Origin: Escherichia phage McMelon
Strand: one strand, 5' to 3'
DNA length: 44,740 nucleotides
Sequence record: OR896838.1
In this document: piece by piece, positions 9,297-39,420 of the stretch
Numbering within the stretch: position 1 is the stretch's first letter
How the letters are laid out: each line of letters begins with the position of its first letter
Position numbers and translations under genes: made by a program
Notes under the pieces: model-generated
The model's input: only the letters and a program-made list of their open reading frames with translations
Database searches by the model: none
Told to the model about the DNA's origin: nothing

Positions 9297-9356
9297 TTTG
9301 GCGCAATTCTGCGCGTGCTGTATCATTAAACCGTATATCTAAACAGGAGCTTTATT

Positions 9357-10082
9357 ATGGGTTATCAACTTCCCAACGGGTCCAGCGTCCAGATCGGGTC
9401 CGTATTAGGCAGCGGCATCGCGGTTACGGCAGCTACCAACGCCGCCGCGTCGATCTCCGACCTTACGCAAGGTTGCGTAATTACCTGCGCGGCTTCGCAT
9501 GGTCTGGTTGTTGGCGACGTTGTTATGTTCACTAAAACCCCGTGGGCCCGAGCGCTTAAACGCGCGTTCATCGTGGGTAAAGTGGATACTAACGACGTGA
9601 CGCTGGCGCGCTTCGATACTCAAGACGTCACAAAATACCCTACCGGCGCTTTCGGCGTAGGCACGCCGGGCGAAGTGGTGAAGGTGTCGAGCTTTATCGA
9701 CTTCCCGTTTATCACTAACGTTGCCGTGTCTGGTGGCGACCAGCAGACCACCACCTTCCAGCCGTTGCAGGTGAATACCGCGATCAGTCTGAACACCACG
9801 AAAAACCCGGTGGTACAGACTTACACCTTCACCCACGACGAAGAAGACCCGATCCGCCCAATCCTGGAAGACCTGGACGACACACAGAAAACCACTGTGA
9901 TTAAGTTCACTAACCCAGCGGCAGCAAGCGGCAAAGGTGAGATTCGTATTTACCCAGCTAAGGTATCTTTCCAGAAGATTCCGTCCGCTGAAGTAAACAA
10001 CGTGGAAACGGTACAATCCACTCTGACCATGCAGTCTGATATGGTTATCTACCGTAAGGATCTGGTCGAGGCATTGTCTTGA
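9357..10082 (+). CDS. major tail protein
   Basis: 241 aa, RBS AGGAG, followed by strong terminator and the G/GT chaperone pair. Confidence 0.7.
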   Translation: MGYQLPNGSSVQIGSVLGSGIAVTAATNAAASISDLTQGCVITCAASHGLVVGDVVMFTKTPWARALKRAFIVGKVDTNDVTLARFDTQDVTKYPTGAFGVGTPGEVVKVSSFIDFPFITNVAVSGGDQQTTTFQPLQVNTAISLNTTKNPVVQTYTFTHDEEDPIRPILEDLDDTQKTTVIKFTNPAAASGKGEIRIYPAKVSFQKIPSAEVNNVETVQSTLTMQSDMVIYRKDLVEALS

Positions 10083-10111
10083 TTTGGTCGCTTAAATAGC
10101 GAGTGATAATA

Positions 10112-10136
10112 TGGGGCCAGCACGGCCCCTTTTTTA
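10112..10136 (+). terminator. rho-independent terminator
   Basis: GGGGCC-agca-CGGCCCC hairpin followed by a T-run. Confidence 0.7.
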
Positions 10137-10151
10137 TTGGAGAATACTACA

Positions 10152-10514
10152 ATGGCTAAAGCACCACTCTTCACACTTGACCCTAAGCCAACCTTTAAGC
10201 TGCCGATTGAGATCCCGCGCCCTGGTGAGAACGAACCAGGCAAGATGACGTTTACCGTACGCCACCGCCCGATCGACGAGTTTTCGCAGACCATGCAGGA
10301 CACCGAACGCAAGCTGTCGGAATATGACGACAATGACCCGGACGGCTTTAACGTTATGGTCGAGGCCATCATGCACGTCGCAGAAGGCTGGAATCTGCCG
10401 GACGAATTTAACGCGGAGAACGTCCGCCGCCTGGTGGTCAACTATCCACGCGCGTTCGGTGTGTTCCACACGTCGTACTATCTCGAACTGATGGGGTTGC
10501 GTGAAAAAAACTAA
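10152..10514 (+). CDS. tail assembly chaperone (lambda G-like)
   Basis: 120 aa between major tail protein and tape measure; ends with slippery A AAA AAC directly before the stop. Confidence 0.7.
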   Translation: MAKAPLFTLDPKPTFKLPIEIPRPGENEPGKMTFTVRHRPIDEFSQTMQDTERKLSEYDDNDPDGFNVMVEAIMHVAEGWNLPDEFNAENVRRLVVNYPRAFGVFHTSYYLELMGLREKN

Positions 10515-10828
10515 TTGAGGCGGCGCGACGCTTTTATGGCCCGCCGCCACCCTCCGAAGATTTAGCCGCAAGTTTATGGGGCGCGGCCCCCGAAGATGTT
10601 TGTCCACCTGTTGCGCTGTGGCCCGACAACGCGAAGGTAGTCGCAGTCTTCACAGATTGCTCCACGCAATGGCGCACCGGATTTGGTGGCGCATACGGCA
10701 TCGACTACGGCGTGCTGGAGTGGTTATTTAAGATGCACGGTATCGAAAACGAACAGCGCGCGTTTAAAGATATCAAGCTAATGGAACGAATAGCGCTTGA
10801 TGAGATGGCGCAGCAGAACCCCGCATAA
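10505..10828 (+). CDS. tail assembly chaperone frameshift extension (lambda T-like; made as fusion with 10152..10510 by -1 frameshift)
   Basis: Heptamer A AAA AAC at 10505..10511 followed by TAA; the -1 frame stays open about 105 codons to TAA at 10826..10828; canonical G/GT arrangement. Confidence 0.5.
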   Translation, partial: KKLIEAARRFYGPPPPSEDLAASLWGAAPEDVCPPVALWPDNAKVVAVFTDCSTQWRTGFGGAYGIDYGVLEWLFKMHGIENEQRAFKDIKLMERIALDEMAQQNPA

Positions 10829-11140
10829 TGAAGCGGGACGTCCCGCTTTGTCCCGCCCTGTAAAACCGCATATCTAATCACTTTCATTGCATAAACTCAA
10901 AGCGGGACAGGCGGGACGTCCCGTTTTGTCCCACCCATGAAATGTGCATACCTATTCGAATTTCGTGCATAAAACAAGCGGGACAGAAAGCGGGACAGAC
11001 AAGGGGCGGGACAAAGCGGGACAGCACCCCGTCCCCGCCAGTGCTGCCGCGGTTTTCAGCCGATCGGGACAAGCGGGACAAAGCCCAGTCTTTCAGACTA
11101 GACGGGGGTCAACGGCCCCCCTCGTCTGAGACTGAATAAG
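10829..11140. repeat. GCGGGACA iteron / palindrome array ending in GC-rich hairpin (copy A)
   Basis: At least 10 copies of GCGGGAC or its complement, including perfect palindrome GCGGGACGTCCCGC (10833..10846); terminal hairpin GACGGGGGTCAACGGCCCCCCTCGTC; about 150 bp nearly identical to 39030..39210. Confidence 0.7.
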
Positions 11141-11157
11141 GTTTGTTTGAAATTCGC

Positions 11158-11166
11158 TGATACAAT
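11158..11166 (+). promoter_or_regulatory. candidate extended -10 promoter (TGaTACAAT) upstream of tape measure gene
   Basis: TGnTACAAT-type element about 37 nt upstream of the TMP start; no good -35. Confidence 0.3.
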
Positions 11167-11202
11167 GACAGTCGGCAACTGCATAAAAAAGGGGACTGCA
11201 TA

Positions 11203-13845
11203 ATGGCAGATCAAGCAGCAGGCATCACGCTGAAGGCTGATGTTGCACAAATCAGAACGGCAAATACTGTGCTGGACTCCTTCGCACAGAAATCCGAGAA
11301 CACAGAAAACAAGGTTAAGAAATTAAACGACACCCTCGGCAAATCCAAAAAGGTGACGAGTGACGCCGCTGGCGGAATGGAAAAGCTGGCAAACGAATCG
11401 CAGCGCGCCGCCGACGGAATGACGAAACAGGAGCGACTCGCCAACCGGTTAGGCATGTCGACCAAAAACCTGGGCTTTGCCTCGCGTAACGCCGCATTCC
11501 AGTTACAGGATATTGCGGTAACGCTTGAGATGGGTATGCCGGTGCACCGCGTTATGCTTCAGCAGTTACCGCAGCTTACTGGGGCGTTCGGTGGATTTGG
11601 TAACACGCTGCGTTATGTTGCGGGCGTCCTCGGTCCGGTAGGGATCGGCATTGCAGCACTAACGGCAACGTTAGGCGTAGGGGTGGCAATTACGTCCCGC
11701 GCAGAGAACCAGGTCGCAGCGCTTAACAAGACGCTGGCGCTGTCAGGTAACATTTCCGGCCTCACTGCAAACCAGATCCTGGTGCTATCCGAGAACGCCG
11801 AGCGCATGGGCGGATCATTCCGCAAGACGCGAGACACAATCCAGTCGCTGGCGGCGGCGGGTGTGAAAGCGGGTGCGGACTTCGGCACGCTGGCGAAAGT
11901 GGTGAATGACTTTGCGAAGGTGTCCAGCCAGCCGATCGAGGATGTGGTCGCGGCGGTGGCGAAGTTGTCCACTGACCCGGTAGGCGGCTTGCGAGCATTG
12001 GCTGATAAGTATCACGTCGTAAACGAAGCGCAGATCCAGCAGGTGCAGTCGCTTGTGGATATGGGTCGCGAGACCGACGCGGTTGCGTTGGCTAACAAAA
12101 CCGCCGCAGCGTCGTTTACGACTATGACCAACGATATTAAGTCCAACATGGGTACGCTTGAGCGTTCGATGAACGTCGTCACATCGGCAGCTAAATCTAT
12201 GTGGGACGCTATCCTGGATGTGGGCCGCGCGCAGTCCTCCAATGAGTCAGAGATGAAAGCGCGCGAATCACTCCAGCGCATGACAACGGCTTACTATGCC
12301 GAGATGAAAGCGGTAAACGCTGCCGGTGGAGTGATGACCGAAGCGCAGAAAGCACGTATTAACATGCTTTACAGCGAACTGGTCGCACAGGAAAAAGTAG
12401 TGGCATCGCTCACCCTGCGTAACCGCGCAGAGCGAGACAACGCCCGCGCCGCGGACGAATCAGCGAAGGCGAACGAGGAGGCCAACCGCACCGCCCGTGA
12501 CCGCGCCGCGTTCGAGAAGGAATACGCCACCAACGCTAAGAAGCGCGCAGACGAGATCGCCCGCCTCAATTTGCTGAATAAGCGCGGCGTTATTGACGAG
12601 AAAGAGCTTGCTGAGGCGGTTAAGCAGGTAAACGAGCGTTACAAAGACCCGGCCCCGAAGAAGGCTGCGGCTGTTCGCGTGGATGCCGGTATGAAAATGC
12701 TGGAAGTCGCACGGAGCGAACTGGCACAGCTTCGGGAATCAGGCAAGCAGATCGAAGCCAACGCATCGACGCAGACCCGCACGCAACGCGCTCAAGCGGC
12801 CTTAAACAAGCTGATCGCGGATAATGAGCAGTTAATCGCCGCAAGCAAAGAAAGGGCGCTAACGGCAGCGGAAAAGCAGCAGATGGCAGAATTCGGACGC
12901 GTGAAGGAAGTGCGCGAGCAGATCGTCGAAGAAGCCAAATTGCTGGACGCGAAAGAGAAACAGGTCAAGGCGCACGCGCAGATCGACGCCTTCGTTAAGA
13001 ACCAGAACGCCGAGCTAAAAGCCACCGCGGCGGGCTATGCGCTTTCCACTCGCGAAGCGGCTAACCTGCGTGAAGAATTGCAGCTGATTGACCGCCTTAA
13101 GCGGGTGGGTGCTAGCGATACCGATATTGATCTGGCGGTGTCTAAGCTGCGCGAAGTGCAGGAAGCACAGACCGGTGCTAACGCCTCGCTATGGGATGGC
13201 TTCAGCCGCGGGCTTAAGGATAGCGTTGATGAAATGGGTACCGGCTATACGCAGATGACGTCACTCACAAAATTCACGTTCGGCGCCATGCAGGACACGA
13301 TGAACGAGTTTTTTGAGACTGGCAAGCTGAACGCAAAGGATATGGTTAAGTCCATCCTGAGCGAATTAATCAAGCTGGCTACATCGCAGGCGTTCAAGTC
13401 CATCGTTAGCGCTTTCGGCGGCGACGGCGGCAAAAACGGATTGTTCGGCGCTATCTTCTCTGGCCTCACTAAGAATGCGGACGGCGGAGCGTACGCAGGA
13501 GGCAATCTCGCGGCCTATTCGGGGAAAGTGGTAAGCCAGCCAACCTTTTTCAGTTATGGCGTTCAGGCGTTCGCTAAGGGCGCAGGATTGATGGGTGAGG
13601 CCGGACCAGAGGCCATCATGCCACTGAAGCGCGGCCCCGACGGCAAACTTGGAGTCGCCGCTGCCGGTGTAGGCGGGGGGATGATTGTAACGACCAACGT
13701 TAACATGGGGACCGGTAAGACGGATACCAGTGTTAGCGGACCAGACCCGCGCACCGCGCAGGCGTTCGGGAAGCAAATCACCGAGTCGGTCAAGGCCGAG
13801 ATCGTGAAGGCGACGAAACCGGGTGGTGTACTTTACAAACGATGA
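11203..13845 (+). CDS. tail tape measure protein
   Basis: 880 aa, long helical A/K/E-rich regions and Gly-rich C-terminal part; follows the G/GT chaperone. Confidence 0.85.
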   Translation: MADQAAGITLKADVAQIRTANTVLDSFAQKSENTENKVKKLNDTLGKSKKVTSDAAGGMEKLANESQRAADGMTKQERLANRLGMSTKNLGFASRNAAFQLQDIAVTLEMGMPVHRVMLQQLPQLTGAFGGFGNTLRYVAGVLGPVGIGIAALTATLGVGVAITSRAENQVAALNKTLALSGNISGLTANQILVLSENAERMGGSFRKTRDTIQSLAAAGVKAGADFGTLAKVVNDFAKVSSQPIEDVVAAVAKLSTDPVGGLRALADKYHVVNEAQIQQVQSLVDMGRETDAVALANKTAAASFTTMTNDIKSNMGTLERSMNVVTSAAKSMWDAILDVGRAQSSNESEMKARESLQRMTTAYYAEMKAVNAAGGVMTEAQKARINMLYSELVAQEKVVASLTLRNRAERDNARAADESAKANEEANRTARDRAAFEKEYATNAKKRADEIARLNLLNKRGVIDEKELAEAVKQVNERYKDPAPKKAAAVRVDAGMKMLEVARSELAQLRESGKQIEANASTQTRTQRAQAALNKLIADNEQLIAASKERALTAAEKQQMAEFGRVKEVREQIVEEAKLLDAKEKQVKAHAQIDAFVKNQNAELKATAAGYALSTREAANLREELQLIDRLKRVGASDTDIDLAVSKLREVQEAQTGANASLWDGFSRGLKDSVDEMGTGYTQMTSLTKFTFGAMQDTMNEFFETGKLNAKDMVKSILSELIKLATSQAFKSIVSAFGGDGGKNGLFGAIFSGLTKNADGGAYAGGNLAAYSGKVVSQPTFFSYGVQAFAKGAGLMGEAGPEAIMPLKRGPDGKLGVAAAGVGGGMIVTTNVNMGTGKTDTSVSGPDPRTAQAFGKQITESVKAEIVKATKPGGVLYKR

Positions 13846-38886: not shown

Positions 38887-38961
38887 ATTCTGCGCGCATT
38901 GGTTGCCGATATGGGAATTCCCATATCGTTAGAAGATTAAATTTTGCGCGCATTGGTTGCC
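38876..38961. repeat. direct repeat - 22-bp perfect palindrome - direct repeat structure (candidate origin/operator)
   Basis: 31-bp direct repeats A(A/G)AAGATTAAATT(C/T)TGCGCGCATTGGTTGCC at 38876..38907 and 38930..38961 flanking CGATATGGGAATTCCCATATCG (38907..38928); third ATTGGTTGCC at 38986..38996. Confidence 0.6.
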
Positions 38962-39029
38962 ATTTTGAGTGTTTTTATCTGGTCGTATTGGTTGCCGTGT
39001 AGTGTAAATATAGTGAATAGTTATGCAGT

Positions 39030-39210
39030 TTTATTGCATAAAGCAAGCGGGACAAAAAGCGGGACAAACAAGGGGCGGGACAAAGCGGGACAGCACCCCT
39101 GTCCCGCCCCGGATGACGCGGCTTCCAGAGGAGCGGGACAGGCGGGACAACTCCCAGTCTTTCAGACTAGACGGGGGTCAATGGCCCCCCTCGTCTGAGA
39201 CTGAATAAAA
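39030..39210. repeat. GCGGGACA iteron / palindrome array ending in GC-rich hairpin (copy B)
   Basis: Near-identical to 10970..11140: same order of GCGGGACA units, GGCGGGAC...GTCCCGCC inverted repeat and terminal hairpin (loop differs by one base). Confidence 0.7.
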
Positions 39211-39363
39211 TCCGGGTATTGCAAAATACACGGCAGCATGATGCGAATTGCGGTCGTCGATGAACTAGGCAACCAATGCGGGTTGTATTATGCTGAGTGA
39301 AAAATGCGGTTTGCAGTCACAGCAGATAGCGATCAGCTTTTTCATGCGCGTGATTAATATTGG

Positions 39364-39392
39364 TTGCACCCACCCTGGCACCCTGCTATATT
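39364..39392 (+). promoter_or_regulatory. sigma70-like promoter (TTGCAC-17-TATATT) for rightward early ORFs
   Basis: TTGCAC, 17-nt spacer, TATATT, then GGTTGCACACCAACA and RBS GAGGAC; -10 plus downstream 21-mer identical to the 5247..5275 promoter. Confidence 0.5.
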
Positions 39393-39420
39393 GGTTGCAC
39401 ACCAACATGAGGACCGAACA

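What the first reader, a model, noticed from the sequence alone, without database searches (positions are those of the whole stretch)
10505..10828. Programmed -1 frameshift site in the tail assembly chaperone (G/GT-like)
The chaperone ORF ends in the slippery heptamer A AAA AAC (10505..10511) directly before its TAA, and the -1 frame is open for about 105 further codons, ending exactly where the repeat element begins. This matches the conserved G/GT arrangement upstream of tape measure genes.
Basis: partly seen in the sequence, partly recalled or inferred. Interest (0 to 1): 0.4.

Follow-up and report, generated by a model that had tools for sequence, protein, structure and literature searches.

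The report
Tail chaperone G/GT -1 frameshift site
This is the ordinary programmed -1 ribosomal frameshift that lets a tailed phage make a short tail-assembly chaperone and a rarer extended version from one gene; it is real and deeply conserved, but it is a well-known device, merely left unannotated in the eight database records of this phage genus that I inspected.

Summary
The window is a Dhillonvirus (HK578-like E. coli siphophage). A 120-codon ORF (10152-10514, Pfam Phage_TAC_4) lies between the major tail protein and tape measure genes. It ends in A AAA AAC (10505-10511) followed directly by TAA. The -1 frame opens exactly at the heptamer and runs 105 codons to TAA 10826-10828 (Pfam DUF1799). 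It has no ATG/GTG/TTG for 67 codons.

Of 142 relatives down to about 35-45% protein identity, 133 keep a canonical heptamer abutting the stop, with T in the -1 frame (113 A AAA AAC, 20 G GGA AAC). Six others have an A_AAG-type site. Among 13 Dhillonviruses, 38 of 48 variable T-region sites are third codon positions of the -1 frame.

A 7-bp all-G:C hairpin (10519-10548) starts 7 nt after the heptamer. Its base keeps the same position in several clades and shows compensatory changes. The 67 nt around it form the longest invariant stretch of the G-T region.

The G GGA AAC relatives argue against transcriptional slippage on the A7 run.

One correction: tandem slippage predicts the junction ...REKN-LIEAARR..., not ...REKK-L....

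Verdict: a correct but ordinary G/GT frameshift, already annotated at the homologous site in Tlsvirus U136B. Low interest.

The parts
9357..10082 (+). Major tail (tube) protein gene, the upstream neighbour
   Evidence: Pfam Phage_tail_3, E 7e-33. Annotated as major tail protein in relatives.
10113..10135 (+). Terminator-like hairpin GGGGCC..GGCCCC plus a T-run, between the tail tube gene and G
   Evidence: Terminator scan. Annotated as a terminator in phage CS16. It would lower G/GT expression relative to the tube protein; that is inference.
10152..10514 (+). Gene G: tail assembly chaperone, 120 aa, 14.0 kDa, with GGAG 9 nt upstream of the ATG
   Evidence: Translation. Pfam Phage_TAC_4 3e-22. 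phrog_569 1e-40. Among 13 Dhillonviruses, 51 of 56 variable sites are at codon position 3.
10502..10504 (+). TGA in the -1 frame, which closes that frame immediately 5' of the heptamer
   Evidence: Sequence and translation. It confines any productive shift to the heptamer.
10505..10511 (+). Slippery heptamer A AAA AAC in X XXY YYZ phase
   Evidence: Sequence. Identical in 113 relatives and replaced by G GGA AAC in 20. It is the only + strand AAAAAAC in the window.
10512..10514 (+). 0-frame stop TAA abutting the heptamer. It overlaps the -1 frame Leu codon, and its last A begins the following -1 codon.
   Evidence: T[AG]A follows the heptamer in all 133 canonical relatives. The overlapping -1 codon always begins with A, although the amino acid varies among I, K, T and R.
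10519..10548 (+). Candidate stimulatory hairpin: GGCGGCG / CGCCGCC stem, 16-nt loop, 7-nt spacer after the heptamer
   Evidence: dG -15.6 kcal/mol, within the top 0.4% of 30-nt windows; one of five all-G:C 7-bp stems in the window. The base of the stem keeps its position across clades with compensatory changes. No variable site among 13 Dhillonviruses.
10503..10569 (+). Longest invariant stretch of the whole G-T region among 13 Dhillonviruses (67 nt)
   Evidence: None of the 12 third-codon positions in 10512-10548 varies (P about 0.004).
10511..10828 (+). T segment: the -1 frame ORF, 105 codons plus TAA, with no canonical start for 67 codons
   Evidence: Pfam DUF1799 1.3e-20. phrog_680 9e-31. 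38 of 48 variable sites are at codon position 3 of the -1 frame, and 8 of 105 residues vary.
10152..10828 (+). Predicted GT fusion, join(10152..10511,10511..10828): 225 aa, 25.6 kDa
   Evidence: Constructed; size. phrog_17368 (213 positions) matches G at profile positions 1-107 and T at 147-212. U136B carries the equivalent join annotation.
11203..13845 (+). Tape measure protein gene, the downstream neighbour. It is separated from T by a 374-nt repeat-rich gap.
   Evidence: Pfam TMP_2 3.5e-43 and Tape_meas_lam_C 4e-13.

Best explanation
This is a programmed -1 ribosomal frameshift at the last two sense codons of the tail assembly chaperone gene.

Most ribosomes decode ...AAA AAC and terminate at the abutting TAA, giving the 120-aa chaperone G. 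A minority slip one base back on A AAA AAC: tRNA-Lys moves from AAA to AAA and tRNA-Asn from AAC to AAA. The same product would arise if P-site tRNA-Asn slipped while the stop codon waited in the A site. These ribosomes re-read the C as CUA (Leu) and continue for 105 codons, giving a 225-aa GT protein with the junction ...REKN-LIEAARR....

The G:C hairpin 7 nt downstream (10519-10548), and the slow-to-decode stop codon, probably raise the shift rate.

By analogy with lambda gpG/gpGT, G and the G part of GT would coat the tape measure protein, while the T (DUF1799) domain would recruit the tail tube protein. Neither would end up in the virion.

Shown here: the sequence anatomy, family membership, conservation, and selection on the -1 ORF. 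Inferred: that the fusion is made, its ratio to G, the role of the hairpin, and the binding partners.
For: Anatomy: heptamer, abutting stop and -1 ORF.

Families and gene order: tube protein, then Phage_TAC_4 plus DUF1799, then tape measure protein. PHROG tail families, including a 213-position profile that spans both G and T.

No independent start: there is no ATG/GTG/TTG for 67 codons. The codon used as a start in the HK578 record is ATT, with no Shine-Dalgarno sequence, and it varies in relatives.

Conservation: 133 of 142 relatives keep a canonical heptamer plus stop with T in the -1 frame; 6 more have an A_AAG-type site.

The 20 G GGA AAC relatives have no homopolymer run, which points to the ribosome rather than RNA polymerase.

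Purifying selection acts in the -1 frame.

Hairpin: its energy is unusual for the genome. The same register (+8..+11 pairing with +34..+37) is paired in 93% of cells against 78% in shuffles (0 of 500 shuffles reach it) and 15-69% when slid. Pair 18-41 occurs as C-G, U-A or G-C in 61 of 62 sequences. Synonymous variation is suppressed over 10503-10569.

Precedent: the U136B join annotation; the T1-like phage Stevie, 'conserved translational frameshift' (PMC4319613); the eiAU phages (PMC3025963); lambda G/GT biology and the shiftiness of A_AAA_AAC (PMC5009743).
Against: There is no protein or reporter data for this phage or genus.

In E. coli, synthetic A_AAA_AAC is much less shift-prone than A_AAA_AAG (PMC5009743), so efficiency may be only a few per cent. 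That would fit a low GT:G ratio but is unmeasured.

The hairpin evidence is suggestive only. Whole-region folds are no better than shuffles (z 0.2-0.4). RNAalifold finds no consensus structure. Rogunavirus-like relatives keep the heptamer but show no comparable hairpin. The covariation rests on perhaps 3-5 independent events, in codons that are also under protein constraint, and I named the structure after looking at these same sequences.

The A7 run (10504-10510) could let RNA polymerase slippage add a minor share of the product.
Confidence: 0.88

Rival explanations
1. Transcriptional slippage. RNA polymerase stutters on the A7 run (10504-10510) and adds one A to a fraction of transcripts. 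Standard translation of these then gives a G-T fusion with the junction ...REKK-LIEAARR....
For: An uninterrupted run of seven A is present. One prophage-derived relative (L019) carries A8 in its DNA and has G and T fused in frame with exactly the REKK-L junction. This shows that the product of a one-A insertion is a coherent protein. Bacterial RNA polymerase slippage is established for long A/T runs (PMC5009743).
Against: High-efficiency slippage in vivo was shown for runs of 9 (PMC5009743); this run is 7. Twenty relatives have G GGA AAC at the same position, and six have an A_AAG-type site with no long run. What is conserved is therefore a ribosomal slip motif in the correct codon phase, not a homopolymer. 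The abutting stop and the hairpin at a 7-nt spacing are features of ribosomal signals.
Confidence: 0.06
2. Independent translation of the downstream ORF as a separate small protein. Some GenBank records annotate it this way: from ATT at 10514 as in HK578 gp16, or as a 38-aa protein from GTG 10712. Termination-reinitiation after the G stop would have the same outcome.
For: HK578, CS16, Opt212 and SECphi18 annotate separate CDSs here.
Against: There is no ATG/GTG/TTG in the first 67 codons and no Shine-Dalgarno sequence before 10514. The codon at the HK578 'start' position varies in relatives (ATT, AAA, AGG, ATC, ACA...). The residues upstream of the GTG are conserved and lie under the DUF1799 and phrog_680 matches (residues 143-219 of GT, and 13-105 of T). 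A 38-aa product would therefore discard most of the conserved domain. Conservation of the heptamer and its codon phase would go unexplained.
Confidence: 0.04
3. Chance open frame or decayed gene: the -1 ORF is not expressed at all.
For: None beyond the absence of a start codon.
Against: DUF1799 match at 1.3e-20. 79% of variable sites fall at third positions of the -1 frame, and no stop appears in any of the 13 Dhillonviruses. The ORF is kept in 139 of 142 relatives.
Confidence: 0.01

Closest known systems
Tlsvirus/T1-like (Drexlerviridae) tape measure chaperone frameshift, e.g. Escherichia phage U136B U136B_045/046
   Same: Homologous proteins (about 39-41% identity, Phage_TAC_4 plus DUF1799). 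The same gene position. The identical A AAA AAC heptamer abutting TAA, a -1 T ORF, and a hairpin starting 7 nt downstream (GGCGGUUU/AAACCGCC). It is annotated as a joined frameshift product.
   Different: A different genus with diverged sequence. In Drexlerviridae the tape measure gene starts a few tens of bases after the T stop, whereas here a 374-nt repeat-rich gap intervenes. The inner part of the hairpin differs (CG:CG against UUU:AAA).
Bacteriophage lambda gpG/gpGT (Levin, Hendrix & Casjens 1993; Xu, Hendrix & Duda 2004, 2013, 2014)
   Same: Two ORFs between the tail tube and tape measure genes. A -1 shift on an X XXY YYZ heptamer near the end of G. The long form is made as a minority product. 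Both are assembly chaperones absent from virions (background from PMC5009743).
   Different: The heptamer is A AAA AAC rather than G GGA AAG. No match to lambda-specific G or T families appeared in the Pfam scan, only Phage_TAC_4 and DUF1799, so at the sequence level this is an analogue or a very distant relative. In this family the stop directly abuts the heptamer and a downstream hairpin is a candidate stimulator. No function has been tested for this family.
Edwardsiella phage eiAU ORF22/23 and Sodalis phage SO-1 gp15/gp16
   Same: Related siphophage lineages: the HK578 annotation cites SO-1 gp15/gp16 as similar. The eiAU paper notes the conserved tail-gene frameshift between the major tail and tape measure genes (PMC3025963).
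   Different: That paper gives no slip site or structure. I did not examine the eiAU or SO-1 sequences.
Retroviral gag-pro A AAA AAC frameshift sites (MMTV, HTLV type)
   Same: The same heptamer with a downstream RNA structure at a short spacer. From my own knowledge of that literature, the last 0-frame residue there is Asn. PMC5009743 lists A_AAA_AAC among the shiftiest heptamers on mammalian ribosomes.
   Different: A eukaryotic ribosome and a pseudoknot stimulator, with no evolutionary relation. In E. coli this heptamer is less shifty than A AAA AAG.

Membership tests
G/GT-type tail assembly chaperone with programmed frameshift (Xu, Hendrix & Duda 2004) | Two ORFs lying between the major tail (tube) protein gene and the tape measure protein gene | tested here: met
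   Tube gene 9357-10082 (Phage_tail_3), G 10152-10514, T 10511-10828, tape measure gene 11203-13845 (TMP_2).
G/GT-type tail assembly chaperone with programmed frameshift (Xu, Hendrix & Duda 2004) | The second ORF is in the -1 frame, overlaps the end of the first, and has no initiation signal of its own | tested here: met
   The frames overlap across 7 nt only. The first ATG/GTG/TTG is 67 codons in, and there is no Shine-Dalgarno sequence.
G/GT-type tail assembly chaperone with programmed frameshift (Xu, Hendrix & Duda 2004) | Canonical slippery heptamer X XXY YYZ, in phase, within the overlap | tested here: met
   A AAA AAC at 10505-10511. The background rate of in-frame heptamers is about 0.12% per codon.
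G/GT-type tail assembly chaperone with programmed frameshift (Xu, Hendrix & Duda 2004) | The arrangement is conserved in diverged relatives while the flanking sequence changes | tested here: met
   133 of 142 relatives are canonical and 6 have an A_AAG-type site. The heptamer is exchanged for G GGA AAC in the clade found with Ralstonia phage Dina as query.
G/GT-type tail assembly chaperone with programmed frameshift (Xu, Hendrix & Duda 2004) | The -1 ORF evolves as coding sequence | tested here: met
   38 of 48 variable sites are at codon position 3 of the -1 frame, and 8 of 105 residues vary.
G/GT-type tail assembly chaperone with programmed frameshift (Xu, Hendrix & Duda 2004) | The GT fusion is made at a low ratio to G, both are needed for tail assembly, and both are absent from virions | not testable with these tools
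   This needs western blot or mass spectrometry and genetics. Nothing was found in the literature for Dhillonvirus.
Pfam Phage_TAC_4 (PF08748) plus DUF1799 (PF08809) | Score above the curated gathering threshold for each domain | tested here: met
   79.6 bits against a cut-off of 21.1, and 73.8 bits against 26.
Lambda gpG / gpT sequence families themselves | Detectable sequence similarity to the lambda G or T Pfam families | tested here: not met
   At E <= 0.01 the Pfam scan returned only Phage_TAC_4 and DUF1799. No solved structure is related by sequence. Fold-level relatedness was not tested.
Programmed transcriptional slippage sites | A long homopolymer run (high efficiency shown for about 9) that is conserved as a run among relatives | tested here: not met
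   The run here is only A7. It is replaced by G GGA AAC in 20 relatives and by A_AAG-type sites in 6. Background from PMC5009743.
-1 frameshift signals with a 3' stimulatory stem-loop | A stable structure beginning 5-9 nt after the heptamer, supported by covariation | tested here: inconclusive
   For: 7-nt spacer, dG -15.6, 93% paired with three pair types at one position, and a synonymous-site freeze. Against: no RNAalifold consensus, absent in Rogunavirus-like relatives, few independent events.

The most novel reading that the evidence does not exclude
The Phage_TAC_4/DUF1799 chaperone family may carry a three-part recoding cassette kept across several host lineages: a heptamer, a 0-frame stop codon fused directly to it, and a hairpin whose base sits exactly 7 nt downstream. 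The stop appears to be held in place by dual coding, because the overlapping -1 codon always begins with A. In that case the GT:G ratio would be set by competition between termination and slippage, and so would depend on release-factor activity. The 67-nt invariant block in Dhillonviruses (10503-10569) could also reflect a larger RNA element than the simple hairpin.
Probability: 0.3. Interest if true: 0.3.

Novelty: already known. Interest (0 to 1): 0.15.

Why it matters
The main value is for annotation. In all eight Dhillonvirus records I inspected, the T domain is missing, is truncated to a 32- or 38-aa 'hypothetical protein', or is started at a non-start codon. The G gene is often mislabelled 'major tail protein' or 'tape measure protein'. 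The correct feature is join(10152..10511,10511..10828).

A smaller point concerns mechanism. Because the A-site codon is AAC (Asn) and its -1 reading is AAA (Lys), this site lets mass spectrometry tell tandem ribosomal slippage (NLIEAAR) from transcriptional slippage (KK then LIEAAR). The lambda G GGA AAG site cannot do this.

None of this changes what is known about phage tail assembly.

Tried and rejected
- Whole-region RNA folds (10512-10600 and 10480-10680) are no more stable than dinucleotide shuffles (z 0.38 and 0.18). Only the local hairpin stands out.
- RNAalifold on 62 unique junction sequences gave no consensus structure, because the inner stems sit in different registers in different clades. 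I therefore tested only the shared 4-bp base as a named structure. Adding an apical 4-bp stem lowered pairing to 71% for that helix, and it is not shared by Dhillonviruses.
- An Rfam scan of 10000-11300 found nothing near any gathering score. There were only chance microRNA-precursor hits on the inverted repeats.
- A sequence search of the PDB with GT found nothing related.
- By eye I found no complementarity of 5 nt or more between the hairpin loop and the next 70 nt, so I saw no pseudoknot. No pseudoknot predictor was available.
- An upstream Shine-Dalgarno-like stimulator (GGGG at 10493-10496) was considered and dropped, because it is not conserved in relatives.
- My automatic gene picker chose the antisense ORF 10134-10607 over G. 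That ORF is interrupted by stops in 3 of 13 Dhillonviruses, and the substitution pattern fits the + strand frames.
- Three apparent exceptions turned out to differ by homopolymer length or an indel at or near the same site rather than lacking the frameshift arrangement. HCF1 has A5 and is flagged UNVERIFIED_ASMBLY. L019 has A8. L128 has an upstream indel.
- I did not run structure prediction or the large protein searches. Family membership was already clear, and they would not have changed the verdict.

Full report
**What the window is.** Bases 9300-11300 match 158 phage records at 80-99% nucleotide identity. Nearly all are Escherichia phages of the genus Dhillonvirus (HK578-like); the best is vB_Eco_CS16 at 98.3%. 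The finding lies in the tail gene block.

**Checking the observation.** The ORF 10152-10514 (ATG, with GGAG 9 nt upstream) encodes 120 aa ending ...GLREKN.
- The last codons are CGT GAA AAA AAC TAA, so A AAA AAC occupies 10505-10511 in exact X XXY YYZ phase and the stop is 10512-10514.
- In the -1 frame a TGA sits at 10502-10504. The frame then stays open from 10505 to TAA at 10826-10828.
- The two frames therefore overlap across the heptamer only.
- The first GCGGGAC palindrome of the downstream repeat region begins at 10831-10833.

It is not a chance pattern. In-frame heptamers of this type occur 16 times in about 13,430 codons of the window. AAAAAAC occurs once on the + strand in 44.7 kb, and 4 times on both strands against 8.9 expected. 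The -1 ORF contains no ATG, GTG or TTG until 10712, 67 codons in.

**What the two ORFs are.** A fusion built across the shift matches Pfam Phage_TAC_4 ('phage tail assembly chaperone', residues 1-119, 3e-22) and DUF1799 (residues 143-219, 1.3e-20). The upstream gene is a tail tube protein (Phage_tail_3). The downstream 880-aa gene is a tape measure protein (TMP_2 and Tape_meas_lam_C). PHROGs places both halves in tail families. One 213-position profile (phrog_17368) matches G at positions 1-107 and T at 147-212, so full-length G-T proteins exist in that family. No solved structure is related by sequence.

**How the databases treat it.** I opened eight Dhillonvirus records: CS16, SECphi18, UDS3lw, slur05, Opt212, jat, HK578 and, in the hit table only, others. 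None annotates a frameshift.
- The T region is either absent, or a 32- or 38-aa 'hypothetical protein' or 'DUF1799' fragment, or, in HK578, a CDS beginning at ATT on the last base of the G stop.
- G itself is variously called 'major tail protein' or 'tape measure protein'.
- In contrast, Tlsvirus U136B has a homologous pair and annotates a joined 'tape measure chaperone protein frameshift product'.
[quoted passage not shown] The Rogue1 paper proposes a G-T-type fusion (PMC3496638). The Edwardsiella eiAU paper notes the conserved frameshift between the tail and tape measure genes (PMC3025963).

**Comparative test.** A tblastn search with the fusion found 1,162 phage records. In most, the match comes in two pieces, with identities down to about 30%. 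I collected 142 loci with both halves: 13 GenBank phages and 129 IMG/VR contigs, using queries from the window, phage T1 and Ralstonia phage Dina. For each I located the G stop, the T frame and any in-phase heptamer.
- 133 of 142 have a canonical heptamer directly abutting the G stop, with T in the -1 frame.
- Of these, 113 have A AAA AAC and 20 have G GGA AAC; the latter are Dina and the contigs found with it as query. The stop is TGA in 84 and TAA in 49.
- Six (Klebsiella phage K49PH164C2 and five Sf12-like contigs) have T in the -1 frame with an A_AAG-type single-tRNA slip site.
- The other three have a homopolymer-length change or an indel at or near the same site. HCF1, flagged UNVERIFIED_ASMBLY, has one A too few. 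L019 has A8, which fuses G and T in frame as ...REKKLRQ.... L128 has an upstream indel but the normal AAAAAAC TAA.

The base after the overlapping Leu codon is A in all 133. This preserves the 0-frame stop even though the -1 frame amino acid there varies (I, K, T, R). That is a dual-coding constraint on a stop fused to the heptamer.

**Selection on the -1 ORF.** Among 13 Dhillonviruses (92.5-99.9% identical over G-T), 38 of 48 variable sites in the T region fall on the third codon position of the -1 frame. Only 8 of 105 residues vary, and no sequence has a stop. G shows the same pattern in its own frame, 51 of 56. The T region is translated, although it has no start codon of its own.

Seven nucleotides after the heptamer there is a hairpin with a perfect seven-pair G:C stem, GGCGGCG (10519-10525) with CGCCGCC (10542-10548), and a 16-nt loop.
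- *In this genome.* Its dG is -15.6 kcal/mol. Only 0.4% of 30-nt windows in the genome fold as well. It is one of five all-G:C seven-pair stems in the window. A perfect seven-pair stem has about a 0.8% chance of starting within a given 5-nt span.
- *In other clades.* A stem also begins at +8. T1 and U136B have GGCGGUUU/AAACCGCC. The Dina clade has GGCGG.../...CCGCC, extended to 13 or more pairs in some members. The largest IMG/VR clade has GGUC-CCG-GCGU/ACGC-CGG-GACC. The Aeromonas-like clade has GGUU...AACC.
- *Covariation.* On a gapless alignment of 62 unique junctions, the shared four-pair base (+8..+11 with +34..+37) is paired in 93% of cells. Column shuffles give 78% (0 of 500 reach the observed value), and slid registers give 15-69%. 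One pair occurs as C-G (29), U-A (18) or G-C (14), with a single exception. In that pair a synonymous third position tracks an amino-acid-determining second position.
- *Sequence freeze.* Within Dhillonviruses, 10503-10569 is the longest invariant stretch of the whole G-T region. None of the 12 third positions in 10512-10548 varies (P about 0.004).
- *Caveats.* Whole-region folds are unremarkable. RNAalifold gives no consensus. Rogunavirus-like relatives keep the heptamer without an obvious hairpin. The number of independent changes is small. I chose the structure after seeing the sequences.

I rate the hairpin as a probable but unproven stimulator.

**Mechanism and rivals.** The best explanation is -1 ribosomal frameshifting on A AAA AAC, with the abutting stop and the hairpin as likely enhancers (confidence 0.88).
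- *Background.* According to the recoding review, A_AAA_AAC is much less shifty than A_AAA_AAG in E. coli. Lambda needs only about one GT per 30 G (PMC5009743). A weak site is therefore plausible for this job.
- *Transcriptional slippage on the A7 run* would give the same frame change. But efficient slippage was shown for runs of nine, and 26 relatives have slip sites without a long run. What is conserved is a codon-phased ribosomal motif.
- *Independent initiation or reinitiation* lacks any start signal and would not explain the heptamer.
- *A non-expressed ORF* is excluded.

In tandem slippage the 0-frame codons are the ones decoded. The junction should therefore be ...REKN-LIEAARR... (tryptic NLIEAAR). 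...REKK-L... is what transcriptional slippage would give, or a P-site-only shift before A-site decoding. The junction residue therefore tells the mechanisms apart.

**Function.** By analogy with lambda (PMC5009743), G and GT would bind the tape measure protein and the T domain would recruit the tube protein. This is inference from gene order and family names; nothing here tests it.

**Novelty and score.** This is a correct identification of a textbook recoding event. The homologous site is already annotated in related phages. The only new points are minor: an annotation gap in the Dhillonvirus records inspected, the stop-fused heptamer with a position-conserved hairpin across the family, and the diagnostic junction residue. 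Interest 0.15.

Noticed in passing
window 10829-11202: A 374-nt non-coding gap between the T stop and the tape measure start is packed with GCGGGAC boxes: 10 exact copies in both orientations. The window holds 26 against 9 expected; no shuffle reached 26. The gap includes a 63-nt direct repeat (10833-10895 and 10911-10973) and the palindrome GCGGGACGTCCCGC+TTTG, which the HK578 record calls a rho-independent terminator. In the four relatives inspected outside Dhillonvirus where the tape measure gene directly follows T (T1, U136B, Dina, pAEv1818), it starts within about 45 nt of the T stop, so among these the gap is seen only in Dhillonvirus.
   Followed up: partly
window 10965-11140 and 39035-39210: A roughly 175-bp element is present twice at about 90% identity. 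Each copy is preceded by TGCATAAA, then has 5-7 GCGGGAC boxes, then an identical long hairpin AGTCTTTCAGACTAGACGGGGGTCAAYGGCCCCCCTCGTCTGAGACTGAATAA. One copy sits just upstream of the tape measure gene and the other is 28 kb away. It could be a shared regulatory or promoter-terminator module; its function is unknown.
   Followed up: partly
window 38890-39400: The motif ATTGGTTGC(C/A) recurs at least five times around the second GCGGGAC cluster. It resembles iterons or operator sites.
   Followed up: no
window 10113-10135: A strong terminator-like hairpin (GGGGCC-loop-GGCCCC plus T6) lies between the tail tube gene and G, and is annotated as a terminator in phage CS16. It probably attenuates G/GT and tape measure expression relative to the tube protein.
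   Followed up: partly
L019 1820-1835 (IMGVR_UViG_2619619144_000009): A prophage-derived relative has A8 instead of A7 at the slip site, which fuses G and T in frame (...REKKLRQVAAAMY...). A further frame break then truncates T. It is either a decaying prophage or homopolymer sequencing errors.
   Followed up: partly
L011 about 1805 (Citrobacter phage HCF1, MN545971): The slip-site A-run is one base short (A5). This puts T in the same frame as G, behind a premature stop. The record is flagged UNVERIFIED_ASMBLY, so a homopolymer error is likely.
   Followed up: partly
L139-L143 and L013: Sf12-like contigs (...GCA AAG GTC TAA) and Klebsiella phage K49PH164C2 (...CAA AAG CAC TAA) lack the canonical heptamer. 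They keep T in the -1 frame with an A_AAG-type site one or two codons before the stop. This would be a different slip-site solution within the same protein family.
   Followed up: partly
window 10134-10607 (- strand): A 157-codon antisense ORF overlaps G and the slip site. SECphi18 annotates a shorter antisense CDS in this region. The 157-codon ORF is broken by stops in 3 of 13 Dhillonviruses, and the substitution pattern fits the + strand frames, so it is probably not a gene.
   Followed up: yes
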